64,000 nt of DNA, from the IMG/VR virus record IMGVR_UViG_3300005721_000046; one strand, given 5' to 3'. Below, one piece after another: positions 20,305 to 39,524 of this stretch. The notes beneath the pieces are model-generated. The model ran no database searches, had not been told where the DNA came from, and saw only the letters and a program-made list of their open reading frames with translations. A program made the position numbers and the translations under genes. Source of the stretch: a virus. The number at the start of each line of letters is the position of its first letter. The stretch's first letter is position 1.

Positions 20305-21639
20305 TTATAACGATATACCAATAATGTTTGATTGACGCATCGGATGTCTGAAATCGACATAATAACCAAGAGCATCGGCTGCGTGCTCAACACCTTTGGC
20401 TTTGTCGACTTCGCGAGATCCTTCTTTATAAGTTGTTTGTTCAAGCGAGTTGATGATACCGGAACAGTTGGCGTCAACACGCAGTCTTATTTCGCCGTTG
20501 GCGGTAAACAACAATCGATTGACCGAGTTTACGCGATCTTGCACGGCCGGATGTTTGCGCTTGAAATAAATGTTTTTAAAACCGGCTTCCCGCAAAATAT
20601 CAAGCGACGTTTCGCCACGATCATGATTACGGTTATTGCCTGCCGGGTCAGGATAGATGGAAATCTGGTTGAGATAACGATAATAGCGCCGTGATAGCTC
20701 ATCGGCGGTTTCTTGAACGTTACTTCCAAAAAGTATCGCCTCGTCAACGACCCAGATTTCACCATCTGGCTGTTCTTGCAAAACGATAGACGACATCGGG
20801 TCGATGTTAAAGTCCATGCCAATGTAAATTGGTAATTTGGGATTAAACGGATAATCACCAACGTGTTTTGTTCTATCAAACGCGTAATAGACGCGACCGC
20901 TCATATTGACGAAAGAGGCTTCAAACTCTTGAGCAAAGGATTTTGGATCCATGTCATGCCGACGGGCTTCGATTTCAGAGCGCGGCACAAAAGGAGAAGA
21001 GCTTGTGGGAAATTGCCAGGACTTCCATTCGTTCTCGATAATCTTTCCGCGACTATCTGTAATATGGTCCGGCCGCTGACCTAGCTGATAAAGATCGTAA
21101 AGCCAGTTAAAACTCTTTGGCGTACCAATGAAAATAGCCCGGCCGCGCGTTGTGGCGAGTGTCGGCTGTATAACCTCTTGCCATGTTTCTTCTTTCATGT
21201 CCTGCGCTTCGTCGAGCACAACCAGATTAAGACCTACACCACGTAAAGTATCCGGTTTATCAGCGCCTTTCAAAACAATACGTGAGCCATTGACAAACTC
21301 CATCGACATTCGAGTTTCGTTTGTCTTTTTAATCCATTGATAAGGAATAATACGTTTAAGACTATCCCACATCAGATCACGAGCCATTTGATATGTTGGT
21401 GCAATATACCAAATAAGCTGATCCGATTTTTCCGCTGAAGCCACTATAATTTCGGTCGATGAAAGCTTGGTTTTACCCCAACGTCTACCCGCCACAACAA
21501 CGCGAAAGCGATGTTTGTCCTGATAAACCTTTTTCTGTAACGAATGAAGTTTGCAGGAAAAGTTATTTAGTGTCGACGACGTCATTCTTTTCCTCAAATG
21601 ATTTAATTTCCGCAACAAGGTCGTCAGTGGTTGCGTCAA
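20305..21639 (-). CDS. terL: terminase large subunit
   Basis: Walker A 'VVAGRRWGKTKL', Walker B 'LVVLDEAQD', C-terminal nuclease region. Start may be the internal Met near 21585. Confidence 0.85.
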   Translation of the reverse strand: MTQPLTTLLRKLNHLRKRMTSSTLNNFSCKLHSLQKKVYQDKHRFRVVVAGRRWGKTKLSSTEIIVASAEKSDQLIWYIAPTYQMARDLMWDSLKRIIPYQWIKKTNETRMSMEFVNGSRIVLKGADKPDTLRGVGLNLVVLDEAQDMKEETWQEVIQPTLATTRGRAIFIGTPKSFNWLYDLYQLGQRPDHITDSRGKIIENEWKSWQFPTSSSPFVPRSEIEARRHDMDPKSFAQEFEASFVNMSGRVYYAFDRTKHVGDYPFNPKLPIYIGMDFNIDPMSSIVLQEQPDGEIWVVDEAILFGSNVQETADELSRRYYRYLNQISIYPDPAGNNRNHDRGETSLDILREAGFKNIYFKRKHPAVQDRVNSVNRLLFTANGEIRLRVDANCSGIINSLEQTTYKEGSREVDKAKGVEHAADALGYYVDFRHPMRQSNIIGISL

Positions 21640-22234
21640 GTGGTAAAGCGCCGATCTCCTTGTGATGCTTCAACAGGTCTTCGTCAGTAAGGTCTTCGAC
21701 TGTGAGCTTGGGTAATCTGTTTTCATCGACGTGTTCGTCGGCTTTAAGCACGCGTAATGTGGCTTCTACGTTATCAATAACGATACGATTATATCTATTT
21801 AACGCCTTTAAATCCGGGTCGATTGCTGAAGGAGGTCTGGACGCCTTCAGATTTTCTATAACCGTGTGTCGAGCGAGCAATAATGATTGCTTTAGAACAT
21901 TTACGGCCGTTAAACGAGTTTCTTCAATCCACTGTGCACGTTTATCCGAATAACGTTCGACGGCCGCAATGGCTGCTTTATGACCGGCGGTTGCAACTTC
22001 TGCCGCGCGAGATCCTTTTACAATTCCGGCTGATTTGAATCTTTTCGACAAAGCTTGTCGTGAAATTCCAAGATCGTTGGCAATTTCGACAAGTGAGCGC
22101 TCACCTTTTTCGTAAATATCACAGGCGTTTTGAAACTCGGCTTCGGTAAGACGTTTACCGGTGACGGTCAATGTTTCTTCGTCAAAATTTGCTTCATTTT
22201 CATCAGAATTGGGTGTCATTTGCGTATAATGCAC
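21563..22234 (-). CDS. terS: terminase small subunit with N-terminal HTH
   Basis: HTH 'LVEIANDLGISRQALSKRF'. Immediately upstream of terL and overlapping it. Confidence 0.7.
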   Translation of the reverse strand: MHYTQMTPNSDENEANFDEETLTVTGKRLTEAEFQNACDIYEKGERSLVEIANDLGISRQALSKRFKSAGIVKGSRAAEVATAGHKAAIAAVERYSDKRAQWIEETRLTAVNVLKQSLLLARHTVIENLKASRPPSAIDPDLKALNRYNRIVIDNVEATLRVLKADEHVDENRLPKLTVEDLTDEDLLKHHKEIGALPLDATTDDLVAEIKSFEEKNDVVDTK

Positions 22235-22277
22235 AAAAGCCGTGCATTTCCAGTTATTTAGCCGGAGTTTTTAACAA

Positions 22278-22370
22278 ATTTTCCCGTCCTACGCGCTGTA
22301 AATATATATATATATAATTTATTATCTAATATTAATTTCTTTACAGCGCGAAGAAGGGATAACTCTCCGG
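22278..22370 (-). promoter_or_regulatory. conserved ~90-bp element, copy 1: 11-bp inverted repeat CGCGCTGTAAA/TTTACAGCGCG (22292-22302 and 22340-22350) flanking an AT-rich (TA)n spacer, upstream of terS
   Basis: Seen directly. Near-identical second copy at 33795-33870. Confidence 0.6.
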
Positions 22371-22622
22371 TCATGGTTTAGGCCAAAAAAGTTTGTAAGA
22401 AAGATCGGTCGGAATGAGCAGAGAATAGCTTCCGGATTTTTTTCTAATCAGAACGTTGTATTTAATTAAATATCGGACGGAAATTCGTACCGCACCGTAA
22501 GAGCACTCATACGGTAATAGCTCGTGAAGTTCCCGGATATTTAAAAACTTTCCCTCACCGGCTTTTTTCAGAACAATACCCATGATGGTACGCTGCTTGT
22601 CTGTCATTCGCGGCATGTTCAT
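22371..22622 (-). CDS. small winged-helix DNA-binding protein
   Basis: 83 aa, MarR/PadR-like helix pattern. Overlaps the upstream GNAT gene by 4 nt. Confidence 0.5.
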   Translation of the reverse strand: MNMPRMTDKQRTIMGIVLKKAGEGKFLNIRELHELLPYECSYGAVRISVRYLIKYNVLIRKKSGSYSLLIPTDLSYKLFWPKP

Positions 22623-23527
22623 TGTTTTAGCCTCTCAGTCGGACTTTGACGATCAAATGCAGAAAGCGGCAAACGTGCCGGCACACTTCCTTTCGGATCC
22701 GGACATTTCCAAATTCCGTAAAGCGGTGAGGCTAAGCCGATCTGCTGAATGCCCTTGATGATTTCGCGTGCCGACATTGCTGCAACGCGACGCGCTGCAT
22801 TCGATCCGGCATTAGATGTGTTTTCCAAAGCCGAGTTGCGCATGTAGAACTGTCGACATTGTTCGATCACCAATTCGCGTTCAGTTTGAGGCTTACTATC
22901 AATCTCTGCCAATATCGCTTCGTGATCGGCCGGATTTGCCTCAAAGTTCATGCGAAAAAATTTCATGACCTTTTCGTAATTGTTCGCGTTCATCGGTTTA
23001 ACGAACCGGAAGCCCGCTTTTTGGCCGAAAGTATTATACTTCGACATCGAGGATTGAATTTCCATGAAGGTGTTACCCTCAATGCGCGACACCAAGTTCA
23101 TCATACGATAGCCTGCACCAATGCCGCGATACATCGTGTCGATCACGAAGCGAGAGATGACGCGGATATTAGCATTGATGAACTTGTATCGAGCGGTATT
23201 GGTAAAACGCGTGTCGTTTCCCGGCTTTAATTTCGGCATAACGATATGTCTCTCGCGCAGCATTCCTTTTGGCGAGCCCGTTACCAGGACACCAATCGTT
23301 TCGCCGTATAGACTTAATCGCCAAAAACGTGGGCCAACGGGTAATTTTTCAGCCTTGTAGTGAAGCTCGTGCAGGAGATTCCAGTCGTCTTTAGTGCCGC
23401 GCTCCACTATCATATCGTCTAAAAGCTTAAAAGAAGCTCGTGGAGCGTCGTTTCGTTCGAATAGAGTATCGAACATGCAGACGACGTCTGGAGCGCGTGT
23501 ATGACGCTCTGTGTTGATTTTATGCAT
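22619..23527 (-). CDS. GNAT-family N-acyltransferase with N- and C-terminal extensions
   Basis: GNAT motif A 'RVISRFVIDTMYRGIGAGYRMMNLV'. 302 aa. Confidence 0.55.
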   Translation of the reverse strand: MHKINTERHTRAPDVVCMFDTLFERNDAPRASFKLLDDMIVERGTKDDWNLLHELHYKAEKLPVGPRFWRLSLYGETIGVLVTGSPKGMLRERHIVMPKLKPGNDTRFTNTARYKFINANIRVISRFVIDTMYRGIGAGYRMMNLVSRIEGNTFMEIQSSMSKYNTFGQKAGFRFVKPMNANNYEKVMKFFRMNFEANPADHEAILAEIDSKPQTERELVIEQCRQFYMRNSALENTSNAGSNAARRVAAMSAREIIKGIQQIGLASPLYGIWKCPDPKGSVPARLPLSAFDRQSPTERLKQ

Positions 23528-23539
23528 ATTTCCTGAGTG

Positions 23540-24175
23540 CTAAATGCGTTTACAATCGACTTTTTCGCGAAAACGCTTCGTGATTGTTAAATTTGGCGCA
23601 AGTTCGTCGACAAGATCGGTATGGGTCGTCGCAACCATTAATGTTTTACCGAGACGTCTTGCAACTTTGGCTACATTGAAGGCGACGACACGGGCAGTAA
23701 CGCGATCTAAAACGGCGCCGAATTCGTCGGCAACCCATACATCAGCGCCAGACTCCATGACTTTTGCAAGTTTGAGTCGATAACGCTGACCATCAGAGAG
23801 CTCGGAAGGCTTGCGGATGTAGATCCAGGCGTCGGAAATGCCTGCCTTCGCAAGAAAATCGGTTGCTGTTACCGTGTCGTCACCAATCAATTCAATTACC
23901 GGCCTCTCCTCAAGCGTAATCGAATTGAGATCCGCGACCTTGAGACCTTCTTTGCGCATTTTGGCTACAAGGTCGCGTAGGAGAAGTGATTTACCGGATC
24001 CGGATTGACCGGTGATATAGACCACGTCTCCCTGGTTTATCGAAATCGAAAGGTTGTCATAAATAACAAATTCCTTTTCCGATAAACCTAGACCAAAGGC
24101 TTCGGCAACCTCTAGAACGCGAGGGGTTCGTTCGACTGAGCTGCGAAATCTTCGGTCAATTGTGTATGTTGTCAT
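23540..24175 (-). CDS. ABC-type ATPase (nucleotide-binding domain only)
   Basis: Walker A 'GQSGSGKS', ABC signature 'LSDGQRYRL', Walker B 'VWVADEFGAVLD', H-loop 'ATTH'. Start placed at Met 'MTTYTIDRR' (24175). The longest ORF extends to 24265. Confidence 0.65.
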   Translation of the reverse strand: MTTYTIDRRFRSSVERTPRVLEVAEAFGLGLSEKEFVIYDNLSISINQGDVVYITGQSGSGKSLLLRDLVAKMRKEGLKVADLNSITLEERPVIELIGDDTVTATDFLAKAGISDAWIYIRKPSELSDGQRYRLKLAKVMESGADVWVADEFGAVLDRVTARVVAFNVAKVARRLGKTLMVATTHTDLVDELAPNLTITKRFREKVDCKRI

Positions 24176-24186
24176 TGAATTCCCGC

Positions 24187-24576
24187 TTAACCGTTTTCGT
24201 TCATCGGGAAATAGATGTTTCCGTCCACATCGGTGTAAGGCGAGTAGATGAGAACGTCGTTGCATTCGAGACTTAAAGAGCTCAAAATCGCGCCGATAGT
24301 GCCAATTTCGGGCGAATTATATGTTTCTTTGCGAATAGCCATTTCGGTGAAGAAAAAGCCGTTTTCGACATTTCGGGCTACAATAACGACGTCGTCCATT
24401 TTACCTTCGGCAACCATGTTTCGAAGTTTATCGAGCGTTTCGATTAGATCGTTTCGCCGTTCCTCTTCTGTGACATCGATCACCGGTTTTTCGTAGTTGC
24501 TGCTATTGTTCGGAAATTTTACGACGTTATCGCTATTTGTCGTGGGAGAGTTATTATGATTATCGTTATTGTTCAT
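24187..24576 (-). CDS. hypothetical protein with Asn-rich N-terminus
   Basis: ORF tightly packed between the ParB-like gene and the ATPase gene. Confidence 0.4.
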   Translation of the reverse strand: MNNNDNHNNSPTTNSDNVVKFPNNSSNYEKPVIDVTEEERRNDLIETLDKLRNMVAEGKMDDVVIVARNVENGFFFTEMAIRKETYNSPEIGTIGAILSSLSLECNDVLIYSPYTDVDGNIYFPMNENG

Positions 24577-24578
24577 GT

Positions 24579-25271
24579 TTATTCTGCCATCACTTCCGAC
24601 GATAGAGAAGTGTCCAATATTTCGATTAAGGCATCTGGTCCTTTCTTGCCTGTCTTTGTTTCGACGCGTGACATGAGTGAGTGAATCTGACGTGACTGGG
24701 CAATTGTCACGCGTTTAAAACCGAGAGCATCAGCAACTGGCGCCATAATGTCATCGGTTGCTGCGACGTTTTCTCGGTTTTGCTCGGCTTGTTCTTCGAC
24801 CGCCGATCCTATGTCGTCGACAAAATTCAAATCGCTAATTTCGCCGAGATCTTCGATTGCAAAATTAAGTTCGTTTTCGTCAAAACCGGTATCGAAAAGA
24901 GTCAAATTGCTTTCTGTGCTGGCAAGACTTTCCTGAAGTCGTTTAAGTTCCGACGAAATCATATCCATGTCGTAAGCAACCGATGTTACGCGGTTGTCGG
25001 CAAGACGTAACGCATCTGCCTCAGCTTTGGTTAGATCGGAGCGAACAACAACCGGAACCTTTTTCAGTCCAAGTTTTAGGGCGGCCAATCGTCTACCATG
25101 ACCGATAATAATCGATCCGTCTTTCCAAACGACAATTGGCTGCGTCCATCCAAATTGCTTAATTGAATTGGCGAGCTTGGCTATTTGCTTTTCATCGTGA
25201 AGTTTGGCGTTATTCTCATACGGCTTTAGTTTTTCGATATCCCAAATCTCAGTTGGTAGGGGTTGCGACAA
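24579..25271 (-). CDS. ParB-like nuclease domain protein 1
   Basis: ParB N-terminal domain pattern 'IVVWKDGSIIIGHGRRLAALKLGLKKVPVVV'. Confidence 0.7.
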   Translation of the reverse strand: MSQPLPTEIWDIEKLKPYENNAKLHDEKQIAKLANSIKQFGWTQPIVVWKDGSIIIGHGRRLAALKLGLKKVPVVVRSDLTKAEADALRLADNRVTSVAYDMDMISSELKRLQESLASTESNLTLFDTGFDENELNFAIEDLGEISDLNFVDDIGSAVEEQAEQNRENVAATDDIMAPVADALGFKRVTIAQSRQIHSLMSRVETKTGKKGPDALIEILDTSLSSEVMAE

Positions 25272-25341
25272 TTTTTTTCTCTCCAGAATTGTATGCCGTC
25301 GCTAGTTACTTTTTTTAATTATAGCGATAAATGGCCGTCAT

Positions 25342-25998
25342 TTATTTCAGGTAAGGCATCAAAATTTGAACCAGGGCGTCACCGACGTTTGTCAGTTCGT
25401 CGGCTTCTGTGAAGCCGTATTCTTTTTGAGTGGTCGCGATAAGCGCGGTTATGCGTTCAGCGTCCGCGATAGGTACTTTAAATCGCATAATTGTGTGCGT
25501 TTTTGCAGGCTTTGCGACGGGCTCCAAATCTTCCGGTGTATCAAGTTCAGTTTCAACATCCTCCTCAAGTTCCAACATTTCTAACGCTATATTTGATGAA
25601 AAGATTTCGTTGATGTCAGATTCGCCATAAGGAAGAAAATCTTTGAGCTCGTTAGTGTCCAAAGACTTTAACAATTCGGCTAATTCAATAGCGTCGTCTG
25701 TGCCGTATCGTGCGTTGTCGGCCAAACTGATTTCTTTGGCGCGTTTGTCGTCGATACAACCAAGATTAAAAACAGGTAATTTATCCAAGCCTAGTTCGAT
25801 GGCCTGTTCCCATCGATGCTGTCCGCCGAGAATCTCGTATACGCCCTCTTCTATCTCTCGAACGATAATGGGTTTAAAAACACCATTACGTTTGAGTGAA
25901 GCGCGTATTTTGCGCTCGTTTTCGGGCGTTACTTTATTCGTATTCCATGAGTTTTTTCGGAGCTGGCTTGGCTTGAGTTCAAGAAACTGTGCTGCCAT
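25342..25998 (-). CDS. ParB-like nuclease domain protein 2
   Basis: 'IIVREIEEGVYEILGGQHRWEQAIELGLDKLPVF' ParB/Srx fold pattern. Acidic middle region like protein 1. Confidence 0.7.
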   Translation of the reverse strand: MAAQFLELKPSQLRKNSWNTNKVTPENERKIRASLKRNGVFKPIIVREIEEGVYEILGGQHRWEQAIELGLDKLPVFNLGCIDDKRAKEISLADNARYGTDDAIELAELLKSLDTNELKDFLPYGESDINEIFSSNIALEMLELEEDVETELDTPEDLEPVAKPAKTHTIMRFKVPIADAERITALIATTQKEYGFTEADELTNVGDALVQILMPYLK

Positions 25999-26090
25999 GT
26001 TGCTCTTTTTTTATAAATACCGTTATGTTATAACATAACCATATAATTTTAACCCGCATTTTGAAATAATTCAAGTAAAAAGGATATTTA

Positions 26091-27665
26091 ATGTCTCTTG
26101 TTCGTATAGCTAAGAACGCGATTTTAGCAAAATTGATTGAACCAGATCATAATATCGTTGTTTTCGTGAATAATCTTCTTTCCTATGACGTAAATGTCGG
26201 TGGAGCGTTCGGTTGGTCAGGAAAGTCATCTTTTTTTACCATGTATAACCGAACATTTCCGGCGGGCTTTGTCTATTTGGTTACGGAAGAGCTTAGTAAA
26301 GCTGGTCATGACGTCAGAATTATTCAAAGTGCGTTACCCAAACCTACAGGACCTGAAAATCCCATTGTCGATAGCTTTGGTAACGATGATCCGCGTTATG
26401 ATTATCAGATAAAAGCATTGCGACAGGTAGAAAAGTATGGCGCGGGTATTGTGCGTGTTGCAACCGGTGGCGGTAAGAGCAAGATCGCCAAATTGGTGAT
26501 GAAAAGATTTCCCGGCGTTACGCTTTTTCTGTCTACACGAGCAATTTTGCTTCGTCAGATGGATAAACAGCTCAAAGAAATCGGTATGAACACCGGAATG
26601 ATTGGCGACGGTGAAATGCATTTTGTTCCCGGCGTTAATCTTGGAATGGTGCAAACGCTCGTACAGGCTCTTGAGGAGCCAAACTTAAATAACGAAATTC
26701 TTGCAGTGATTGCCGCAGAACACAAAAAGAACAAGAAGGTTTTAACGCGTCAACAAGCCGAAAAGACTGCCAGATTAGTTTACGAGCGAAAAATTAAGCG
26801 GCGCGACGCGATAAGCAAGTTTCTTTCGATGGTTAATGTTGTCATTGGTGAAGAAGCCCATGAAGCAGGCGGCAATTCTTATTATAAAATTCTACAACAT
26901 TGTAAAAACGCGAGAATTCGCGTTGCATTAACTGCAACGCCATTCATGCGTTCTGACATGGAAGATAATATGCAGCTCATGGCCGCTTTCGGACCAATTT
27001 TGATCGACATTAGTGAGAAAATGTTGATTGATCGAGGCATTTTAGCAAAGCCTTTCTTCAAGTTTGTCGATAGTCAGCCTCATCCCAAGCTCTTTAAGAC
27101 ATCGCCATATGAACGAGCCTTGAAATATGGCTATACCGAGAACGAATTTTTGATAAATGACATGATCCGTGACGCAAAACACGCAAAATTACATGGTTTG
27201 CCGGTGTTGACGCTTGTGACGCGCAAGAAGTTTGGCGAGATTTTGCAAAAGGCTTACGAAAAAGCAGGAATTCGAGCTGTTTTTCTTAAAGGCGACGACG
27301 ATAGCGTCGAGCGGAGCGAAAAATTAAACGCTTTAGCAAGCGGAAAGATAGACGGTATTATCGGAACGACAATTTTGGATGTTGGTGTCGACGTTCCAGC
27401 GATTGGTCTTGTTCAATTAGCAGGTGGCGGTAAAGCCGAAGTAGCTCTTAGACAGCGTATAGGTCGCGGATTACGCGCGAAAAAAGGCGGACCGAATGTC
27501 GCTTTCATTGCTGATTATTCCTGCAACAAAAACACCTATCTGAGCGTTCATGCCGAGCAGCGATTTTCGATAATCAAAAACACACCCGGCTTTGCCGAAG
27601 GAATTTTGCCGAAGGGTAAGGATTTTGATTGGAATATTTTTGAAAAGTCGCTTGTTGATGCGTAA
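26091..27665 (+). CDS. superfamily-2 DNA helicase (DEAH-like)
   Basis: Motif I 'ATGGGKSK', motif II 'VIGEEAHEA', motif VI 'QRIGRGLR'. Confidence 0.8.
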   Translation: MSLVRIAKNAILAKLIEPDHNIVVFVNNLLSYDVNVGGAFGWSGKSSFFTMYNRTFPAGFVYLVTEELSKAGHDVRIIQSALPKPTGPENPIVDSFGNDDPRYDYQIKALRQVEKYGAGIVRVATGGGKSKIAKLVMKRFPGVTLFLSTRAILLRQMDKQLKEIGMNTGMIGDGEMHFVPGVNLGMVQTLVQALEEPNLNNEILAVIAAEHKKNKKVLTRQQAEKTARLVYERKIKRRDAISKFLSMVNVVIGEEAHEAGGNSYYKILQHCKNARIRVALTATPFMRSDMEDNMQLMAAFGPILIDISEKMLIDRGILAKPFFKFVDSQPHPKLFKTSPYERALKYGYTENEFLINDMIRDAKHAKLHGLPVLTLVTRKKFGEILQKAYEKAGIRAVFLKGDDDSVERSEKLNALASGKIDGIIGTTILDVGVDVPAIGLVQLAGGGKAEVALRQRIGRGLRAKKGGPNVAFIADYSCNKNTYLSVHAEQRFSIIKNTPGFAEGILPKGKDFDWNIFEKSLVDA

Positions 27666-27824: not shown

Positions 27825-28499
27825 ATGCAGGAAACGCCCAAAATTTTTGCTATTTGCGGTCAACCAAAGTCGGGTAAAACCACGCTTGCTCAGATGCTGA
27901 AAAACAGACTTGGCTATCAGATCATTGATGACGCTCGACCATTACGTTCAATCGCGACACAGCATTTTGGCTTATCGTTGGCCGATGTAATTACTCAGGC
28001 GGGTAAATCAAAGCAAGTCGAATTTATGGGACGTCAATGGACGGTAAGACAGATTTTGGGCGAGATCGGTAACGCGCTTGAGGATAAATTCGGTGCCGAT
28101 ATTATTCCTGAGCTTGCATATATGCAGATGTGCCGGATGATGGAGCAGAAATCAATCAAGCACTTTGTTGTACCTTCCGTAAGACGTGATCAGGGTGTCT
28201 ACTGGAAATCAAAAGGCGCGCTTGTTGTTGAGATTTGTAACCCGAACGTTCCGGAGAGTGCGTTTGAATTCGATCAATATAACAAATCGGTCATCGATAT
28301 TCGTTTAATTAATGATTTTGATCCGGAACGAATAGCGGATCCTAATCGAGAACGTCGTCGGCTTTATAATGAATTCGTTGGGCATGTTCAGAAGAAGTTT
28401 GTTAAGCAGATTCAGTCGGGTGTTTTCTGCGGCGGCGTCATTCAAAATACTCCAGAACATATGCCACAGACATTATCGTGTGACGAAAGCGTTCTGTAA
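27825..28499 (+). CDS. P-loop nucleotide kinase (dNMP kinase-like)
   Basis: Walker A 'ICGQPKSGKTT'. 224 aa. Confidence 0.55.
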   Translation: MQETPKIFAICGQPKSGKTTLAQMLKNRLGYQIIDDARPLRSIATQHFGLSLADVITQAGKSKQVEFMGRQWTVRQILGEIGNALEDKFGADIIPELAYMQMCRMMEQKSIKHFVVPSVRRDQGVYWKSKGALVVEICNPNVPESAFEFDQYNKSVIDIRLINDFDPERIADPNRERRRLYNEFVGHVQKKFVKQIQSGVFCGGVIQNTPEHMPQTLSCDESVL

Positions 28500-28609: not shown

Positions 28610-29263
28610 ATGCCTTTAATCATTGCCTGTTTGTCACAAAAAGGCGGAGTGGGTAAAAGCACTCTTGCCCGACTTATTGCCAGAACCTACGCAGTCGGTG
28701 GATGGTCGGTAAAAATTGCCGACTTTAACACGACACAGTTGAGTTCGTATAATTGGGCGCAAATTCGCAACGGTGAAGGCCATAAACCAAAAATCGATTC
28801 AGAGCCTGCCACCTCGCCTTCTCTTCTCAAACGCGAAAAATATGATCTGGTTGTCGCTGATGGTCGACCGGACTCCGATCAATCAAGTTTGGAAATCGCG
28901 CGAATAGCTGATCTGATTGTTATACCAACCGGTCTACCGCTAGACGACTTGATGCCACAGTTGCGCTTTGCCAATGAGCTCGTTGAAAAAGGCATAGATC
29001 CTCAAAAAATTCTTTGGGTGCTCAACAAGATCACCGATAGCATAACTGCGGTTGCAGAGGCGCGCGATTATATTCGTCAGGATCAGGATTATCGCATCGC
29101 CGCTCAAGAGCTCATGCACAAGATCAGTTACCAGAAAGCGCAAAACCATGGACTGGCTTTATCGGAAGTTGGTCGTAAGGTTGGTTCGTTGGAAGAAAAG
29201 GCTGATCTATTGGCGGCCGAAATCGTAGAGCTTGTTACCAAGTTGACGGAGGATAAAGAATGA
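28610..29263 (+). CDS. parA: ParA/MinD-family partition ATPase
   Basis: Deviant Walker A 'SQKGGVGKST'. 217 aa (small, type Ib size). Confidence 0.8.
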   Translation: MPLIIACLSQKGGVGKSTLARLIARTYAVGGWSVKIADFNTTQLSSYNWAQIRNGEGHKPKIDSEPATSPSLLKREKYDLVVADGRPDSDQSSLEIARIADLIVIPTGLPLDDLMPQLRFANELVEKGIDPQKILWVLNKITDSITAVAEARDYIRQDQDYRIAAQELMHKISYQKAQNHGLALSEVGRKVGSLEEKADLLAAEIVELVTKLTEDKE

Positions 29264-29570: not shown

Positions 29571-29636
29571 GCGTAGATAAGGAAATAAGCATTTGCGCAT
29601 TTAGGTATACGCCTATTTAGGTACATGCTTATTTCT
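29571..29636 (+). repeat. symmetric repeat element GGAAATAAGCAT ... ATGCTTATTTCT enclosing two ATTTAGGTA(C/T)AC direct repeats
   Basis: Seen directly. Immediately downstream of the parA-RHH operon. Candidate centromere or operator. Confidence 0.5.
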
Positions 29637-30069
29637 GGTCAAACGTCAACGACGTAACTTCGCCACCTGAAAACACATCAAACTGCATTGCGATTTTTAT
29701 AGCTTCCTCGGCGTTAGCACCCATTCCAAGCGCGCCATAAGCATATTTGCAGCCAGAACCAATTGCGTAATAATCGGATGAGAGCGGACCTGATGGTGTG
29801 TAGTTATCGCAGTAATAGAACACGCCTTCTTGGGTTATATGTAATGCCGCAAAATCTGGATCGGTGTCTGGTATTTCTTCAGGTCTTGCTCCGTTATTCA
29901 ACCAGTTGGCGATTTGCTCGGAAAAGCCTGGATGCGCCGTTGTAACGCCAACGAGACTGTTATTCTTCAGCTTGTGAATCTTTAATTTGTTGCCAATTGG
30001 TGTCGCATCGCCTGAGTAGGCACGCGAGTCAGCAGCAAGCACGCCATCACGATAAACAATTGTCGTCAT
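29629..30069 (-). CDS. HslV/proteasome-beta-like N-terminal nucleophile hydrolase
   Basis: 'MTTIVYRDGV' aligns with HslV 'MTTIVSVRRNG' (Thr1 nucleophile). Lys at the HslV K33-equivalent position ('NKLKIHKL'). 'YYAIGSGCKYAYGALG' aligns with 'LIAIGSGGPYAQAAAR'. An alternative start at 30108 would add a 13-aa pro-peptide. Confidence 0.65.
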   Translation of the reverse strand: MTTIVYRDGVLAADSRAYSGDATPIGNKLKIHKLKNNSLVGVTTAHPGFSEQIANWLNNGARPEEIPDTDPDFAALHITQEGVFYYCDNYTPSGPLSSDYYAIGSGCKYAYGALGMGANAEEAIKIAMQFDVFSGGEVTSLTFDQK

Positions 30070-30180
30070 TTTAATCCATGCAATAGAGGGGAAATGCGCG
30101 CATATCATTTGCGCTTAAGGCGACCGAATTCTCAAAGTCGCTTTTGTACTTTTAATCCCAACTTTCGATAAAATCAATAA

Positions 30181-31828: not shown

Positions 31829-32137
31829 TCACTGTTGCGCTTGTGAGAACGTTAAAGCCTTTAATTCAGCGCGCTTTTGATTAAGTTGCTTAACATATCG
31901 CGCGCGTCTAAATTTCATAACATTGTAGCGTTTGTTATAAAGTTCGATTAATTCATCAACCGAGCGATTTAAAGCGCTTGCAATAAGGCGAATACGCTCA
32001 CGAGTGTTTTTAACAATCTCGCTAAGCGCGATTATGATTTTCGGTTTCTCAAAGCGTCTCGTTGCAAGAGCGACGCTTGCAGCGTTAAGCAATTCAAATT
32101 CTTCGAAAAGGCGTTCGAATGAGCTGCGAAAAGACAT
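31829..32137 (-). CDS. hypothetical protein
   Basis: 102 aa ORF. Confidence 0.4.
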   Translation of the reverse strand: MSFRSSFERLFEEFELLNAASVALATRRFEKPKIIIALSEIVKNTRERIRLIASALNRSVDELIELYNKRYNVMKFRRARYVKQLNQKRAELKALTFSQAQQ

Positions 32138-32489
32138 TTTTTTTCTCTTTCTGTTATTTGATTATCATTAAAACAAAGACAAAAAGAGCGACGATAAGCG
32201 CGATCTCTTCAATTACGTCATAAAGAACAATGCGATTAAGTTCTTTTTCATAATCAAAATGCTGTCTCATTTGTTTCTCTTTCTGTTTGTTTTTTACATT
32301 TTGATAATAGCGTTTCAGAGCGTTGAAATCTCGAGGTGTCGAACGGTGAATACGCTTGCTGATTGGCCTGAATCGGCCGGAAAAAATTGGATAACGCTGT
32401 TAATCGGCCTCAAAAAAAAACGCAGGATTAGCGGCGTTTTGGCCTAAAGGTTCCGTAGATGTTATCGGTTGGCCGGAACGCCAAGGATT

Positions 32490-32658
32490 TTAAGGAAATA
32501 TGTACATAGGCAAATAGGCCGATAAAGAAATAGGTAAATAGGGAAATAAGCACATAAGGAAAGACACACGCCCGTGGGATCAGCGGCCAAGGTGCAAGCG
32601 GCCAAGGTGTTAGTGAGGATAAAGAAATAAGGAAATAAGGAAGTAGGTAAGTAGGTAC
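32490..32658 (+). repeat. GGAAATA-type repeat arrays (two clusters) plus GCGGCCAAGGTG x2
   Basis: Seen directly, including 'GGAAATATGTACATAGG', which resembles the palindromic operator half-site. Confidence 0.6.
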
Positions 32659-32689
32659 AAAAAAAAGACGCTGACCGAAGCCAGCGTCA
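32659..32689 (-). terminator. rho-independent terminator after gene 32831-33640
   Basis: Minus-strand RNA stem GACGCUG/CAGCGUC followed by U8-9. Confidence 0.7.
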
Positions 32690-32830
32690 GTTAAGAGCGA
32701 TCAGAATAGAGAAACACAAGAATCGCCCTTGAAAAGTTTTATACAATTGAAGAAAAATTCAAAAGCATAATAATAAATTAAAGCGTCTAGTGAGCACTAG
32801 ACGCCTATGAGATATCGTTGTTGAGTTGTT

Positions 32831-33640
32831 TCATTCATGAAACATTTTAATGAGTTGACGTGTTACAGGTGTATCTTTCAAAGCGATTACATTGTCGTCA
32901 CTCTTTTCATTATTGCTAGCAATTGCATCAAAAACCTCTAATGACGCGATCATTTGCGAACGCTGCGCTTGAGCCGTTGCTTTTGAAAGGTCGTGTCGCG
33001 TCAAATAACGCGCGTCACTGTGTGAGATGCGATATTCGCGCGATAATGACGCGAGTTGCAGACCCTGTGTAAAAGATACGTTATTTTCGCTACATTTGAT
33101 CATAGAACGTATAAAACAGTTGATTGTCTTATTGCTTGAATAAAAACCTTTCAACGCACGAGCGATCTCTGCAATCTTGAAAAACGCATAGACGTTGAAA
33201 CGGTTTTTAACGCTTTGCTGTTTATTTACAAAACTCTCATTAATGTGCAATGCGACGAAAACCTGACAAATGTCGTCACTCATGAACTGATTTTTTAGAA
33301 CCGTGAGATTATTGATCATTTTCATCGTGCAATTTTCTTTTGAACGCTCATAATCGATGCGAGCGTCAAAGGCGACAGCAAAATGCATGCGCATTTCTTC
33401 AATCTTTTTTACGTCTTCGATTGCAGTAAATATGTTATTGATATCACCTGATATGCTCTCACCGATATCAACTGACTTGATTGCGTTTGTATTGTTTAAC
33501 GAGACAGTTTTAACAACCGGTGCTTTCGCGATCTCTTCTGTTGTTTTGGTCTCTTCAATCTCTTTCGCATTAAGCGCGACGGCCTGCGCTGTAATATCGT
33601 CGAAAATCGCGGTGTTCGTCATGACGTCTGCAAGGTTCAT
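32831..33640 (-). CDS. hypothetical protein, paralog of 30471-31115
   Basis: See paralog. Followed by a terminator. Confidence 0.5.
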   Translation of the reverse strand: MNLADVMTNTAIFDDITAQAVALNAKEIEETKTTEEIAKAPVVKTVSLNNTNAIKSVDIGESISGDINNIFTAIEDVKKIEEMRMHFAVAFDARIDYERSKENCTMKMINNLTVLKNQFMSDDICQVFVALHINESFVNKQQSVKNRFNVYAFFKIAEIARALKGFYSSNKTINCFIRSMIKCSENNVSFTQGLQLASLSREYRISHSDARYLTRHDLSKATAQAQRSQMIASLEVFDAIASNNEKSDDNVIALKDTPVTRQLIKMFHE

Positions 33641-33794
33641 TTTGTTTCTCTTTCTGTTTTGTTTTCGCGTTAATATTTTGATTTCATTGCGAAAAATTGT
33701 TTTACAAGAAAGACTATAGTCAAAAAAAACAAACGTGTCTCAAGGCTTATAACGGTTTGTGACGGTTTGAAATTCCGGAACTTTGAACAAAGAG

Positions 33795-33870
33795 ACGTTC
33801 CCGTCCTACACGCTGTAATATATATAATATATCTAACATTATAATATTAATTTACAGCGCGTAGGCAGGA
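33795..33870 (-). promoter_or_regulatory. conserved ~90-bp element, copy 2: IR CCTACACGCTGTAA/TTACAGCGCGTAGG (33805-33818 and 33852-33865) around an AT-rich (TA)n spacer
   Basis: Seen directly. Flanks are also shared with copy 1 ('TTCCCGTCCTAC', 'CTCCGG'). Confidence 0.6.
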
Positions 33871-33893
33871 AAGAGACATCTCCGGGCGTTCTA

Positions 33894-34745
33894 TTAGATA
33901 TCTCTAACGCACTTAAAATGCCTTAAGTGCGTTGTTAAAATCACTTCTCCTAAGAATTCGTTGAGACCCAAAATATTATAGTGCTCAACTATTAACTCGT
34001 CGGTGTCGTCACGAGCCGTTATCGCTAAAACCGAAGGAACACGGTGTTTTTCAAAAGCTAAGGCGTAATGTTCCTCTCTGTATTGCGGCTCTTTTACGGT
34101 CTTTGGGGTTTTTCGTAAAACCGTCTTCGATTGAACCGTTCGATAATAAGCGGCTTTCTGCATAACTTCGATTAAATGAGCGCGGTCGCTTTCACTTAAC
34201 TCACTTAGCTTTTTGTTTTTTTCAAATTTTGAAACGAGATCCTTGAGATCGTTGACTGTCGAAAGCTTATTCTTTTTGCAATATTCTTCTGAGGCTTCTA
34301 AAAGCGTTAATAATGTCGGATCACAACGTTGTTGACATTTGAAGTGTTCAATTTTTTCTAGTGAGGAATTTTTAAAGAATTTATTTAGCTTTTCAATCGA
34401 GATAAATTCGGCTGTTAAATCGGCGATGGCTTCCTGGGGTTTATGATGCATTTTTACAAAATAAACAGGAAATTCCATCAGGCGTGGACGGCTGATGGCG
34501 TAATAGATAGCCTCTTTCGTTTTTTCATCGAGTATTACTTCCTCAAAATAAGCTGCGTCTTTTATATTGAGCAGCGTTATGTTTGTATCCCAGTCGCCTT
34601 TTAATTTACGTCGAACGCGTCTCTTGTAGGAATCGCCGGCAGATAATATTAAATCCTCGGCTGTAACGAGATCGTAGATTTCGCAAAAATCCTCCGATTG
34701 TCTCAAGAGATCCATATAGAGAGTCGGTGACTTGCTGTCAGGCAT
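33894..34745 (-). CDS. hypothetical protein, paralog family B member 1 (two internal repeats)
   Basis: Aligns along its length with 35023-35868 ('LEKIEHFKCQQRCDPTLLTLLEASEEYCKKNKLS' versus 'EEKLQNFKCLKPCACATVFIELLKSSEEYCKEHELS'). Start chosen at the Met aligning with the paralog start. The longest ORF starts at 34841. Confidence 0.55.
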   Translation of the reverse strand: MPDSKSPTLYMDLLRQSEDFCEIYDLVTAEDLILSAGDSYKRRVRRKLKGDWDTNITLLNIKDAAYFEEVILDEKTKEAIYYAISRPRLMEFPVYFVKMHHKPQEAIADLTAEFISIEKLNKFFKNSSLEKIEHFKCQQRCDPTLLTLLEASEEYCKKNKLSTVNDLKDLVSKFEKNKKLSELSESDRAHLIEVMQKAAYYRTVQSKTVLRKTPKTVKEPQYREEHYALAFEKHRVPSVLAITARDDTDELIVEHYNILGLNEFLGEVILTTHLRHFKCVRDI

Positions 34746-34831
34746 TTGTTTATTCGCTTTCTCAATCTCAATGTGTGAATTATTGATTGAATTGTAGCGA
34801 TCAATAATAACGCCTTCAAAAGGTATCGTAA

Positions 34832-34847
34832 GGAAATACATATTTCC
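34832..34847. promoter_or_regulatory. perfect 16-bp palindrome GGAAATACATATTTCC (operator-like) within a 45-bp conserved promoter block
   Basis: Seen directly. Identical palindrome and flanks at 35936-35951. Confidence 0.6.
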
Positions 34848-35022
34848 CTATAAGCCTATTTCTGCATATGCGTAGAAGAAGGTAGATAGACTACCCGGAA
34901 GCCATGGTTTTGAGTTTATGTTCTTGGTTTTTTTGATGCGTTATATCTTGACAAAACCTTCATCAAAGACACAAAAACAGAGAAAGCTTTTTTGCTTTCT
35001 CTGTTGTCATTCTTTTACTCTA

Positions 35023-39505: not shown

Positions 39506-39524
39506 TTGCCTTTAGTTATGATAT

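What the first reader, a model, noticed from the sequence alone, without database searches (positions are those of the whole stretch)
22371..24576. Tightly coupled operon: hypothetical / ABC-type ATPase / extended GNAT acyltransferase / winged-helix protein, between replication and packaging genes
The four genes are packed with 4-12-nt junctions. The ATPase has all ABC nucleotide-binding-domain motifs but no transmembrane partner. The 302-aa GNAT carries extra N- and C-terminal regions. An ABC-ATPase plus acetyltransferase pair at this position is not a standard phage module. It could be a nucleic-acid or protein modification, toxin-like or anti-defence system.
Basis: partly seen in the sequence, partly recalled or inferred. 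Interest (0 to 1): 0.6.

Follow-up and report, generated by a model that had tools for sequence, protein, structure and literature searches.

The report
Phage ParB–ABC ATPase–acyltransferase module
This phage encodes a soluble ABC-type ATPase and an acetyltransferase-fold enzyme that are two halves of one machine; the same pair occurs, often with ParB-like proteins and next to the DNA-packaging genes, in many bacterial and archaeal viruses, and its job is untested, though marking viral DNA before packaging is my leading guess.

Summary
Four minus-strand genes (hyp129, a 211-aa ABC ATPase, a 302-aa GNAT-fold protein and an 83-aa winged-helix protein) are joined by 11-nt and 12-nt gaps and an ATGA overlap, and they lie between two ParB-like genes and TerS/TerL.

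The claim that the pair is non-standard is wrong. It belongs to PHROGs 293/886/900. It is syntenic in 28 of 28 related loci, including SSU5-like phage-plasmids, a Yersinia pestis contig, Rhizobium RHEph10 and Pseudomonas nickie. The ABC gene is the best-conserved gene in the block.

Distant relatives are single ABC–GNAT fusion proteins, of the kind one phage record labels MK0520. Some are ParB–ABC–GNAT, PolB–ABC–GNAT or ABC–GNAT–TFIIB fusions. These fusions occur in Gordonia, Leptospira and Burkholderia phages, in a Heliorestis prophage, and in many archaeal viruses, where TerL lies within two genes upstream in about 47 of 73 loci. Lactococcus P335 and a Streptococcus pyogenes prophage carry the split form.

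The ATPase and acyl-CoA-binding motifs are conserved throughout. The best reading is an ATP-driven, ParB-associated acyltransferase that acts on viral DNA, or on something bound to it, before packaging. The substrate is unknown. I found no published function.

The parts
25342..25998 (-). ParB1: 218-aa protein with a ParB/Srx N-terminal (CTPase-fold) domain and no recognisable ParB DNA-binding domain
   Evidence: Pfam ParB_N E=1.8e-12. phrog_723 E=2e-59. Only residues ~4-114 match solved ParB/Noc structures. Found in all 27 related loci that extend far enough. Aligns with the N-terminus of the ParB-ABC-GNAT fusion P0379 at E=1e-4.
24579..25271 (-). ParB2: 230-aa protein with a ParB/Srx N-terminal domain; the motif GHGRR is present
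   Evidence: Pfam ParB_N E=1.8e-9. phrog_930 E=1e-75. PADLOC matches the ParB part of a ParB-methyltransferase model at E=3.6e-24. 28% identity, E=1e-9, to the N-terminus of the triple fusion P0379. Only the N-domain matches solved ParB structures.
24187..24576 (-). hyp129: acidic 129-aa protein with an Asn-rich N-terminus; a lineage-specific occupant of the slot between ParB2 and the ABC gene
   Evidence: No Pfam, PHROG, NCBIfam or PADLOC hit. tblastn finds it in 0 of 28 loci. A profile of the proteins in the same slot in 10 RHEph10-like and alphaproteobacterial loci matches it (hhalign 95.8%, E=7e-9). Cyrano and nickie have no gene in this slot. Net charge about -12.
23540..24175 (-). Soluble ABC-type ATPase, 211 aa. 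Walker A at 23987-24010, signature LSDGQ at 23786-23800, Walker B at 23723-23740, H-loop at 23621-23629.
   Evidence: Pfam ABC_tran 52 bits. phrog_293 E=2.6e-44. 41% identity, E=7e-49, to the N-terminal half of the fused protein P0177. Best-conserved gene of the block, with mean identity 63.5% over 28 loci.
22619..23527 (-). GNAT-fold acyl-CoA acyltransferase-like protein, 302 aa, basic (net +14). HxxHYK at 23354-23371, beta4 plus RGIGAG at 23111-23152, NxFxxKAGF at 23009-23035, helical insert at residues ~180-264, WKCPD at 22697-22711.
22371..22622 (-). wHTH83: 83-aa basic winged-helix DNA-binding protein, translationally coupled to the GNAT gene by an ATGA overlap
   Evidence: phrog_900 E=1.8e-11. 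AF2 pLDDT 90.4. Foldseek hits to winged-helix proteins with TM 0.70-0.79. tblastn detects it in 14 of 28 loci. A small gene occupies the same slot in Cyrano, nickie and RHEph10.
22284..22358 (.). Imperfect 30-nt inverted repeat (GCGCTGTAAA...TTTACAGCGC) flanking a (TA)n tract, in the 136-nt gap between the wHTH gene and the TerS-like gene. It could be an operator, a late promoter or a packaging-related site.
   Evidence: the repeat finder pair I2, 77% complementary with a 15-nt spacer. A promoter-like hexamer pair lies on the minus strand at 22328-22301, but the number of such sites is not above the shuffle expectation. Function not tested.
21563..22234 (-). TerS-like HTH DNA-binding protein (context: start of the packaging module)
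   Evidence: phrog_867 E=2.3e-33, and a weak hit to the small-terminase family phrog_1206.
20305..21639 (-). Terminase large subunit (context)
   Evidence: Pfam Terminase_3 E=2e-8 and Terminase_6N E=4.7e-8. Syntenic in 26 of 28 loci.
26091..27665 (+). Divergently transcribed SF2 (ResIII/Helicase_C) helicase that marks the upstream edge of the conserved block
   Evidence: Pfam ResIII and Helicase_C. phrog_16 E=3.5e-73. Syntenic in 27 of 28 loci.

Best explanation
Shown. The ABC ATPase and the GNAT-fold protein are the two halves, split into adjacent genes, of a widespread viral ABC-GNAT enzyme. Together with the two upstream ParB/Srx-fold proteins, and here a small winged-helix protein, they form a conserved ParB-ABC-GNAT module. 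The catalytic signatures of both halves are retained: Walker A, signature, Walker B and H-loop in the ATPase, and the R/Q-x-x-G-x-G/A acyl-CoA loop, motif B and an invariant H-Y pair in the transferase. The module is genetically tied to the late and packaging genes.

Inferred. The ABC domains dimerise on ATP. The ParB-fold proteins recruit or activate the complex on phage DNA. The GNAT domain then transfers an acyl group from an acyl-CoA to a universally available acceptor on that DNA before it is packaged. The most likely acceptor is an exocyclic amino group of a base, giving for example an N4-acyl-deoxycytidine-type mark. This would work like the NTPase-coupled cytidine acetyltransferase TmcA/NAT10, and would sit in the biological niche of late DNA modifiers such as Mu Mom or the ParB-methyltransferase fusions.

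How the confidence splits. I put about 0.65 on the module acting on DNA or on a DNA-bound target; that figure spans this explanation and part of rivals 1 and 2. I put about 0.35 on the whole statement, including DNA-base acylation; that is the confidence I give.
For: Physical coupling. Distant relatives are single ABC-GNAT polypeptides in the same N-to-C order as the genes here. The window ATPase is 41% identical to the N-half of P0177 and the GNAT-like protein is 27% identical to its C-half. Gordonia phage proteins match the fusion profile at 99.5-99.8% probability.

DNA association. ParB_N-ABC-GNAT triple fusions exist, and their N-terminus aligns with the window's ParB2. PolB-ABC-GNAT (P0245, P0234) and ABC-GNAT-TFIIB (P0171) fusions also exist. 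A ParB gene lies immediately upstream in Gordonia, Jace, LE4, P335 and S. pyogenes phages. The GNAT half is strongly basic.

Active enzymes. The ATPase and acyl-CoA motifs are invariant or nearly so across bacterial and archaeal viruses.

Universal substrate. The same H-Y and Glu residues are conserved in viruses of Proteobacteria, Actinobacteria, Firmicutes, Bacteroidota, Spirochaetes and Nitrososphaerota. This argues against a host-specific target.

Late or packaging linkage. The module sits just before TerS/TerL in all 26 of the 28 loci that extend far enough to include TerL. TerL lies within the two ORFs upstream in about 47 of 73 archaeal viral loci. In Mu-like phiE255 and in Porphyromonas phages the gene follows the tail-fibre or tail genes, which is the position mom holds in Mu.

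A hint of N4-acylcytosine chemistry. ASCH-domain genes lie next to the module in S. pyogenes prophage 315.4 and in 3 archaeal loci. ASCH proteins are N4-acylcytosine/ac4C amidohydrolases (PMC6972931; bioRxiv 10.64898/2026.02.27.708502).
Against: No acylated base has been reported, to my knowledge, in any phage that carries the module. No biochemical datum exists for any member.

There is no sequence relationship to Mom (hhalign below 1%).

The ASCH association is sporadic (3 of 91 downstream ORFs), and ASCH was absent from the inserted genes of the 28 close loci.

Core-gene-like conservation (ABC above TerL) is more typical of an essential morphogenetic or replication function than of an anti-restriction modification.

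ParB is not adjacent in many members, including the archaeal TerL-linked group, phiE255, Porphyromonas and Nonlabens.

The 80 archaeal loci are related viruses, so the TerL linkage there is not 47 independent events.
Confidence: 0.35

Rival explanations
1. Packaging or maturation accessory factor. The ParB-ABC-GNAT complex prepares or marks concatemeric DNA for the terminase. It could help pac-site recognition, clear DNA-bound proteins ahead of the motor, or regulate TerS/TerL. The GNAT domain would act on a packaging protein or serve as an acyl-CoA sensor rather than modifying DNA.
For: Adjacency to terminase genes recurs in separate lineages and in different arrangements: upstream of TerS-TerL in the proteobacterial phages; within the two ORFs after TerL in archaeal viruses; genes 1-4 of Gordonia Sourvirus; 2 kb before TerL in a Heliorestis prophage; before TerL in LE4, P335 and 315.4. 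Conservation exceeds that of TerL and portal. One member carries an intein inside the ABC domain (P0198), which to my knowledge is typical of essential viral replication and packaging enzymes.
Against: In Mu-like phiE255 and in Porphyromonas phages the gene lies after the tail genes, with no terminase annotated within the 3.5-5 kb shown. In Nonlabens P12024S it lies in the replication module. I know of no packaging system that needs an acyltransferase. Strict conservation of the acyl-CoA loop argues for catalysis.
Confidence: 0.2
2. DNA-targeted protein acetyltransferase. ParB and the ABC ATPase bring the GNAT domain to DNA, where it acetylates lysines or N-termini of DNA-bound proteins such as nucleoid proteins, ParB itself, or replication and transcription factors, to remodel viral or host chromatin.
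Against: The acceptor-site residues are conserved across viruses of hosts whose chromatin proteins differ completely, bacteria versus Nitrososphaerota. The target would therefore have to be virus-encoded and equally conserved, and no such partner beyond ParB and TerL is seen.
Confidence: 0.15
3. RNA- or translation-directed enzyme. Like the ABC-F proteins (ribosome and tRNA binders, from my own knowledge), TmcA, or the GNAT toxins AtaT/TacT, the pair would acylate a tRNA base or the amino group of an aminoacyl-tRNA.
Against: The ParB, PolB and TFIIB fusions and the wHTH partner point to DNA. The ATPase is a single NBD with a truncated helical subdomain and no tandem ABC-F architecture. No tRNA genes occur in the window.
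Confidence: 0.1
4. Accessory moron: an anti-defence factor, a toxin-like GNAT with a wHTH antitoxin, or a subunit of a real ABC transporter as many database annotations state.
For: PHROGs files both families under 'moron, auxiliary metabolic gene and host takeover'. The slots around the genes do collect morons such as Tad2-like genes. The ATPase has weak PADLOC hits to mad3/mad8.
Against: The module is present in 28 of 28 relatives and is more conserved than TerL. No TM partner occurs in the window module. None is annotated in the nine cultured-phage regions I read, apart from one small 'membrane protein' downstream of the terminase in BiggityBass. The GNAT is 302 aa with an insert and is fused to the ATPase in relatives, whereas type II GNAT toxins are ~170 aa by my recollection. 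No PADLOC hit for the GNAT.
Confidence: 0.07

Closest known systems
The fused family labelled 'MK0520 protein, ABC-type ATPase fused to a predicted acetyltransferase domain' or 'ABC-type ATPase with predicted acetyltransferase domain' (which I recall as COG2401), uncharacterised; equivalent to PHROG 293 + PHROG 886 in phages
   Same: Both halves are homologous along their full length: 41% and 27% identity to P0177, including the helical insert and the C-terminal W-x-N-P motif. All catalytic motifs are shared. The Cyrano record and JGI already use these names for orthologues.
   Different: Here the enzyme is split into two genes, as in the other SSU5/RHEph10/nickie-like phages, P335 and S. pyogenes prophages. 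It is accompanied by two separate ParB genes, hyp129 and a wHTH. No function is known for any member.
TmcA / NAT10 (ATP-dependent RNA cytidine N4-acetyltransferase)
   Same: The logic is the same: a P-loop NTPase coupled to a GNAT domain to acylate a nucleic-acid target with acetyl-CoA (established knowledge of the family).
   Different: The NTPase there is a RecD-like helicase module, not an ABC NBD. There is no tRNA-binding domain here and no detectable sequence relationship. The substrate here is unknown.
Phage Mu Mom (GNAT-fold DNA adenine modifier)
   Different: No profile-level similarity (hhalign probability 0.2-0.8%). In Mu, mom has no ATPase or ParB gene beside it. Mom is sporadic, whereas this module is core-like.
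ParB-fold partners of DNA-modifying enzymes: ParB-dependent phage thymine dioxygenases (5mYOX), DpdB with DpdA, and ParB-methyltransferase and ParB-acetyltransferase fusions
   Same: A ParB N-terminal NTP-binding domain without an obvious DNA-binding domain is encoded next to, or fused with, a group-transfer or oxidising enzyme on a mobile element (PMC13229309; PMC12704722; PMC12839542). ParB2 matches the ParB part of a methyltransferase model.
   Different: The partner enzyme here is an ABC ATPase plus a GNAT. Neither PMC12704722 nor PMC13229309 mentions an ABC-ATPase partner, so this combination does not seem to be described there. Two ParB paralogues are present.
ParB-SMC loading (bacterial condensin)
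   Same: A ParB-fold protein working with an ABC-superfamily ATPase on DNA (established knowledge).
   Different: There is no coiled-coil insertion and no kleisin, and the ATPase is transporter-like in sequence. This is an analogy only.

Membership tests
ABC ATPase superfamily (nucleotide-binding domain) | Walker A, ABC signature (LSGGQ-like), Walker B with catalytic Glu, and H-loop; Pfam ABC_tran above the gathering score | tested here: met
   GQSGSGKS, LSDGQ, VWVADE and TTH are present. ABC_tran scores 52 bits against a cutoff of 25.
ABC ATPase superfamily (nucleotide-binding domain) | Q-loop glutamine and a full-size helical subdomain | tested here: not met
   There is no Gln between Walker A (residues 56-63) and the signature (126-130), and the spacing is 63 aa. 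The same holds for the fused family consensus.
ABC transporter (the function stated in many database annotations) | A membrane-spanning partner encoded in the operon | tested here: not met
   The maximum 19-aa hydropathy mean is 1.2 or less for all seven module proteins. Among the 28 syntenic loci I tested only the homologues of the window's genes and the Pfam families of the inserted ORFs, and no permease or transporter family was among them.
GNAT (Gcn5-related N-acyltransferase) superfamily | GNAT fold | tested here: met
   [not shown]
GNAT (Gcn5-related N-acyltransferase) superfamily | Motif A, the pyrophosphate-binding loop R/Q-x-x-G-x-G/A after beta4 | tested here: met
   R134-G-I-G137-A-G139 is present. 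R134, G135, I136, G137 and G139 are invariant in 30 orthologues. In the fusions, R337 and G340 are invariant. The motif is Q-G-x-G-x-G/A in the Gordonia proteins.
GNAT (Gcn5-related N-acyltransferase) superfamily | A Pfam GNAT model above the gathering score | tested here: not met
   The window protein scores 14.6 bits against 23.6. Homologues do pass: P0206 at 25.6 and P0171 at 21.5 against 20.7, and P335 Orf25 at 31.1.
GNAT (Gcn5-related N-acyltransferase) superfamily | Acyl-CoA binding and acyl-transfer activity | not testable with these tools
   Needs biochemistry.
Fused ABC-GNAT family ('MK0520' label; recalled as COG2401) | Homology to both the ATPase half and the acyltransferase half of the family | tested here: met
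   BLASTP E=7e-49 and E=6e-21 to P0177. A profile search finds 359 representatives, and all 15 of the longer ones I scanned with Pfam are fusions.
Fused ABC-GNAT family ('MK0520' label; recalled as COG2401) | Both domains in a single polypeptide | tested here: not met
   Here there are two genes separated by 12 nt. The same split occurs in RHEph10, Cyrano, nickie, P335 and 315.4.
Mu Mom-like DNA modification proteins | Sequence or profile similarity to Mom | tested here: not met
   hhalign probability is 0.2% (A1) and 0.8% (A2) against Mu Mom. Only the generic GNAT fold is shared.
TmcA/NAT10 cytidine acetyltransferases | RecD-like helicase ATPase domain plus GNAT plus tRNA-binding domain | tested here: not met
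   The ATPase is an ABC NBD. No TmcA/NAT10 Pfam domains are found in the module proteins.
Canonical ParABS partition ParB | ParB N-terminal CTPase-fold domain | tested here: met
   ParB_N E=1.8e-12 and 1.8e-9.
Canonical ParABS partition ParB | Central HTH parS-binding domain, C-terminal dimerisation domain, and an adjacent parA | tested here: inconclusive
   Only the N-domain aligns with solved ParB/Noc chains, and TIGR00180 is below its cutoff. A ParA-like gene exists 2.6 kb away on the other strand (28610-29263), but it is not adjacent. The cultured relatives nickie and RHEph10 also carry the ParB pair.
Type II GNAT toxin-antitoxin (TacAT/AtaRT-like) | A small GNAT toxin (~170 aa by my recollection) with an overlapping DNA-binding antitoxin gene, sporadically distributed | tested here: not met
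   The protein is 302 aa with a helical insert. It is fused to an ATPase in relatives and is universally syntenic in this phage group. There is no PADLOC hit.
Winged-helix DNA-binding proteins (the 83-aa gene) | H1-b1-H2-H3-b2-b3 topology and structural matches | tested here: met
   AF2 pLDDT 90.4. Foldseek TM 0.70-0.79 to AF1382, STIV F93, BlaI, AspA and TubR.

The most novel reading that the evidence does not exclude
The ParB-ABC-GNAT module is a previously unrecognised class of nucleic-acid writer. It would be an ABC-ATPase-powered, ParB-targeted DNA acyltransferase that puts an N-acyl mark (for example N4-acetyl- or N4-acyl-deoxycytidine) on viral genomes just before packaging, conserved from proteobacterial phage-plasmids to thaumarchaeal tailed viruses. 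Neighbouring ASCH proteins would read or erase the mark. In one subfamily, neighbouring formyltransferase-like enzymes would diversify it.
Probability: 0.25. Interest if true: 0.85.

Novelty: new member of a known kind. Interest (0 to 1): 0.55.

Why it matters
The window's genes are not new as sequences. Orthologues sit in SSU5, in a Yersinia pestis contig of about 108 kb, in RHEph10 and in nickie, usually mislabelled 'ABC transporter'.

What matters is what the comparison exposes. An uncharacterised three-part module (ParB fold, ABC ATPase, GNAT acyltransferase) is conserved as strongly as the terminase. It occurs in tailed viruses of at least five bacterial phyla and of archaea, it is repeatedly fused into one protein, and it is repeatedly placed beside the packaging genes.

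If it writes an acyl mark on DNA, that would be a new kind of viral genome modification and a new use of the ABC ATPase and ParB folds. If it is a packaging or maturation factor, it would be an unrecognised common component of head-filling. Either way it is directly testable in tractable phages (SSU5, P335, Gordonia Sourvirus, LE4).

It also corrects widespread annotation errors: PHROG 886 is named 'ABC transporter ATP-binding subunit', ParB-only proteins are called 'DNA methyltransferase', and a formyltransferase is called 'tRNA-methyltransferase'.

Tried and rejected
- Near-identity DNA search of 21500-26000 against 50,697 phage records: no match. Only protein-level relatives exist.
- Pfam, NCBIfam and PADLOC on the GNAT-like protein: nothing significant. 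Sequence search of the PDB with the family profile gave only noise, such as annexin. Fold comparison was needed.
- Mom homology: rejected at profile level.
- Real ABC transporter: rejected. There are no TM segments in the window module and no permease family among the genes of the syntenic loci.
- GNAT toxin with wHTH antitoxin: rejected on size, fusion partners and universal synteny.
- 'hyp129 is unique to this phage': my first tblastn result, 0 of 28, was a false negative. A profile of the same-slot proteins matches it.
- ASCH or methyltransferase genes among the inserted ORFs of the 28 close loci: none. Instead there are Tad2-like, BTLCP peptidase, PNKP-phosphatase and thioredoxin morons.
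- Literature: no paper holds 'COG2401', 'ABC-type ATPase fused' together with 'acetyltransferase', or 'ATPase with predicted acetyltransferase'. The ParB surveys do not mention an ABC partner. Krishnan et al. 2020 (ABC ATPase classification) and Iyer et al. 2013 could not be read, so I cannot exclude that they describe the family.
- The afdb50 fold library was unavailable. BFVD gave only weak generic GNAT hits.
- Repeats and promoter/terminator scans of the cluster: nothing above chance except the palindrome at 22284-22358.
- No tRNA genes in the window.


Full report
**1. What is in the sequence**

- hyp129 at 24187-24576
- an ABC-type ATPase at 23540-24175
- a 302-aa protein at 22619-23527
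- an 83-aa protein at 22371-22622

The mechanical ABC ORF reaches 24265. The ATG at 24175 gives 211 aa, the length called independently on near-identical metagenomic contigs. The junctions are 11 nt, 12 nt and an ATGA overlap.

Upstream on the same strand lie two ParB-like genes, ParB2 at 24579-25271 (2 nt before hyp129) and ParB1 at 25342-25998. Beyond them is a divergent SF2 helicase (26091-27665, plus strand). Downstream, after a 136-nt gap, come a TerS-like HTH protein, TerL and the portal. The packing is normal for a phage and is not evidence by itself.

**2. The individual proteins**

*ATPase.* It passes Pfam ABC_tran (52 bits, cutoff 25). It has Walker A, LSDGQ, Walker B-Glu and the H-loop. 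No Q-loop glutamine is evident. Walker A and the signature are only about 63 residues apart, so the helical subdomain that couples to permeases in transporters looks truncated. None of the seven module proteins has a transmembrane-like segment.

*83-aa protein.* It is a confident winged helix (pLDDT 90). Its Foldseek hits are AF1382, STIV F93, BlaI/MecI and the centromere binders AspA and TubR.

*ParB proteins.* Both match solved ParB/Noc structures only over the N-terminal NTP-binding domain.

**3. It is not rare**

PHROGs already holds all three conserved genes:
- phrog_293 for the ATPase
- phrog_886 for the GNAT half, at E=1e-111 and misnamed 'ABC transporter ATP-binding subunit'
- phrog_900 for the wHTH

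tblastn finds the GNAT half in 31 phage records: Rhizobium RHEph10-like, Pseudomonas nickie-like, Stenotrophomonas, Xanthomonas, and SSU5-like phage-plasmids of Salmonella, Klebsiella and E. coli. A genome scan adds 25 loci, mostly contigs of 100-118 kb in Rhizobiales, Sphingomonadales and Enterobacterales, including one in Yersinia pestis.

In all 28 loci the order is helicase | ParB - ParB - ABC - GNAT - (wHTH) - (TerS) - TerL - portal. Mean identity to the window is:

| Protein | Mean identity |
|---|---|
| ABC ATPase | 63.5% |
| TerL | 58.8% |
| GNAT half | 51.5% |
| portal | 50.6% |
| each ParB | about 46% |

The ATPase is the best-conserved gene of the block, which argues against a moron, a toxin or an anti-defence accessory.

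hyp129 was missed by tblastn. It is nevertheless a divergent member of a family that fills the same slot in at least 10 RHEph10-like and alphaproteobacterial loci (hhalign 95.8%, E=7e-9). Cyrano and nickie lack a gene there. Other ORFs inserted within the block are miscellaneous morons, for example Tad2-like genes in three loci.

**4. Rosetta-stone fusions**

A profile search of 1.84 billion representatives finds 359 relatives of the GNAT half. Many are proteins of 450-560 aa in which the match starts near residue 200. All 15 of the longer ones I scanned with Pfam carry ABC_tran N-terminal to the region that matches the GNAT half; in some of them the GNAT models also score, above cutoff in P0206 and P0171.

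The window ATPase is 41% identical (E=7e-49) to the N-half of one such protein, P0177. The GNAT half is 27% identical over 271 residues (E=6e-21) to its C-half, including the helical insert and the terminal W-x-N-P motif. The two window genes are therefore a split version of one enzyme, of the kind the Cyrano record and JGI call 'ABC-type ATPase fused to / with predicted acetyltransferase domain'. I recall this as COG2401.

A word-indexed search with P0177 gives 2028 proteins at E<1e-5, many of them from Nitrososphaerota, Aigarchaeota and Bathyarchaeia MAGs.

Further fusions are informative:
- ParB_N-ABC-GNAT proteins of about 630 aa (P0366, P0369, P0373, P0378, P0379). Their N-terminus aligns with the window's ParB2 (28% identity, E=1e-9) and ParB1 (E=1e-4).
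- PolB-ABC-GNAT (P0245, P0234) and ABC-GNAT-TFIIB (P0171).
- One member with an intein inside the ABC domain (P0198).

The ParB genes therefore belong to the functional unit, and the partners point to DNA.

**5. Genomic context elsewhere**

| Virus or element | Arrangement |
|---|---|
| Archaeal chromosome | Fused gene is the last gene after tail genes of a provirus |
| Archaeal integrated element | A triple fusion lies with PolB, a Rad51-like gene and an integrase |
| Heliorestis convoluta prophage | Fused gene 2 kb upstream of TerL and portal |
| 73 analysable IMG/VR loci (one related group of archaeal viruses) | 45 of the 146 ORFs at positions -1/-2 are Terminase_6N and 2 are TerL_ATPase, so TerL lies within the two upstream ORFs in about 47 loci. 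Downstream genes are heterogeneous. At least 14 contigs end exactly at the gene's stop codon. |
| Gordonia Sourvirus | gp1 ParB, gp2 ABC-GNAT (hhalign 99.5%), gp3 Formyl_trans_N protein (annotated tRNA-methyltransferase), gp4 terminase |
| Jace | gp85 ParB, gp86 ABC-GNAT (hhalign 99.8%) |
| Leptospira LE4 | ParB-like gp14, ABC-GNAT gp15, TerL gp19 |
| Lactococcus P335 | Alt, Orf23 (ParB_N), Orf24 (ABC), Orf25 (GNAT above Pfam cutoff), TerS, TerL |
| S. pyogenes prophage 315.4 | ParB, ABC, GNAT fragment, ASCH, TerL |
| Mu-like Burkholderia phiE255 and Porphyromonas phages | ABC-GNAT plus a formyltransferase after the tail-fibre or tail genes, the place mom holds in Mu |
| Nonlabens P12024S | In the replication module |

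**6. Mechanism**

*Shown:*
- The module is non-transporter.
- Its two enzymatic halves must work as one complex, because of the fusions.
- Both catalytic sites are under strong constraint.
- It associates with ParB-fold proteins and, in separate lineages, with the late and packaging genes.

*Inferred:* the ABC domains dimerise on ATP, ParB recruits or activates the complex on DNA, and the GNAT domain transfers an acyl group from an acyl-CoA to an acceptor that must be common to viruses of very different hosts.

I favour a DNA base as that acceptor, for these reasons:
- ParB-fold proteins are proven partners of phage DNA-modifying enzymes. Examples are the ParB-dependent thymine dioxygenases (PMC13229309) and DpdB-DpdA (cited in PMC12839542).
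- ParB-methyltransferase and ParB-acetyltransferase fusions are common on mobile elements (PMC12704722), and ParB2's best defence-library match is the ParB part of a ParB-methyltransferase model.
- TmcA/NAT10 shows that an NTPase coupled to a GNAT can acetylate a nucleobase, and Mom shows that a GNAT fold can modify DNA (fold match).
- Late genes placed before packaging are, to my knowledge, where phage DNA modifiers usually sit.
- ASCH genes, whose products hydrolyse N4-acylcytosines (PMC6972931; bioRxiv 10.64898/2026.02.27.708502), occasionally flank the module.

Against this reading:
- No acylated base has been reported in these phages, as far as I know.
- The fold match is non-specific, and Mom is unrelated in sequence.
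- The ASCH link is sporadic.
- Terminase-level conservation fits an essential morphogenetic role as well.

I give about 0.35 to DNA-base acylation, 0.2 to a packaging or maturation accessory, 0.15 to DNA-targeted protein acetylation, 0.1 to an RNA or aminoacyl-tRNA target (the formyltransferase neighbour and the AtaT/TmcA analogies), and under 0.1 to a moron, toxin or transporter.

**7. Comparison with what is known, and novelty**

The genes are members of an already catalogued but uncharacterised family, so as a finding this is a new member of a known kind. I found no paper on its function. The recent ParB surveys do not mention an ABC partner. Two relevant comparative-genomics papers could not be read, so an earlier description cannot be excluded. 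The module does not meet the tests for Mom, TmcA, GNAT toxin-antitoxin pairs or ABC transporters (see the membership table).

**8. Limits**

- ORF calling in the fetched loci was crude.
- The 80 archaeal loci are related viruses and are not independent events.
- The GNAT model has only medium confidence outside its core.
- All functional statements beyond homology, fusion and synteny are inference.

Noticed in passing
window 28610-29263 (+) and 49142-50239 (+): A ParA-like ATPase (Pfam CbiA/ParA; phrog_164) lies 2.6 kb from the ParB pair on the other strand, and a tyrosine-integrase-like gene (phrog_1) lies further on. The element may be temperate or a phage-plasmid like its SSU5-type relatives. 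Whether ParA works with ParB1 or ParB2 is open.
   Followed up: partly
window 22284-22358: A 30-nt imperfect inverted repeat (GCGCTGTAAA...TTTACAGCGC) around a (TA)n tract, in the only sizeable gap of the block, just upstream of the TerS-like gene. It is a candidate operator, late promoter or packaging-related site, and a possible wHTH83 or ParB target.
   Followed up: no
window 24187-24576: hyp129 is acidic (net about -12) with an Asn/Asp-rich N-terminus. tblastn missed its relatives, but a profile shows it belongs to a family that fills the same ParB2-to-ABC slot in at least 10 alphaproteobacterial phage or plasmid loci (RHEph10 gp082 type).
   Followed up: partly
L001-L028, ORFs between ParB1 and TerL (three of the 75 scanned): The slots between ParB1 and TerL in close relatives collect unrelated small genes, including Tad2-like (anti-Thoeris) domains in three loci, a BTLCP peptidase, a PNKP-type phosphatase and a thioredoxin. 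The region looks like a moron insertion hot spot.
   Followed up: partly
L115:1823-2470 (Gordonia phage BiggityBass gp3); L119:6083-6694 (Burkholderia phiE255 gp30); L121:4625-5098 (Porphyromonas phage): A Formyl_trans_N-domain protein immediately follows the fused ABC-GNAT gene in three distant phage lineages. In Gordonia phages it is annotated 'tRNA-methyltransferase'. A second N-acyl-transfer enzyme beside the GNAT suggests an amino-group substrate.
   Followed up: partly
P0198 (847 aa): An intein (Hint plus LAGLIDADG) is inserted inside the ABC ATPase domain of one ABC-GNAT fusion. To my knowledge, inteins usually sit in highly conserved replication, repair or packaging enzymes.
   Followed up: no
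L097 and L100, 5580-9362 (P0245); P0234; P0171: Family B DNA polymerase fused N-terminally to ABC-GNAT (1260 aa) on viral contigs of 26-73 kb, and an ABC-GNAT protein with a C-terminal TFIIB repeat.
   Followed up: partly
L035-L114 (IMG/VR archaeal viral contigs): In at least 14 loci the contig ends exactly at the stop codon of the ABC-GNAT gene, and in many more within 1 kb. The gene marks the edge of the virus or provirus, right after TerL.
   Followed up: partly
L001, L003 and PHROG annotations: There are systematic annotation errors. phrog_886 (the GNAT half) is named 'ABC transporter ATP-binding subunit'. ParB-only proteins (RHEph10 gp083, nickie gp158) are named 'DNA methyltransferase', apparently through ParB-methyltransferase fusion families.
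   Followed up: yes
[not shown]
   Followed up: no
window 32000-48000: G+C drops to 36-41% against 42-46% elsewhere. Five of the larger ORFs between 30.4 and 35.9 kb, plus the one at 47937-48983, have no PHROG match. This may be a foreign or accessory segment bounded by the integrase-like gene.
   Followed up: no
window 27825-28499 and 29629-30108: A dNMP-kinase-like P-loop protein (phrog_139) and an HslV-family peptidase (phrog_1040) lie just beyond the helicase.
   Followed up: no
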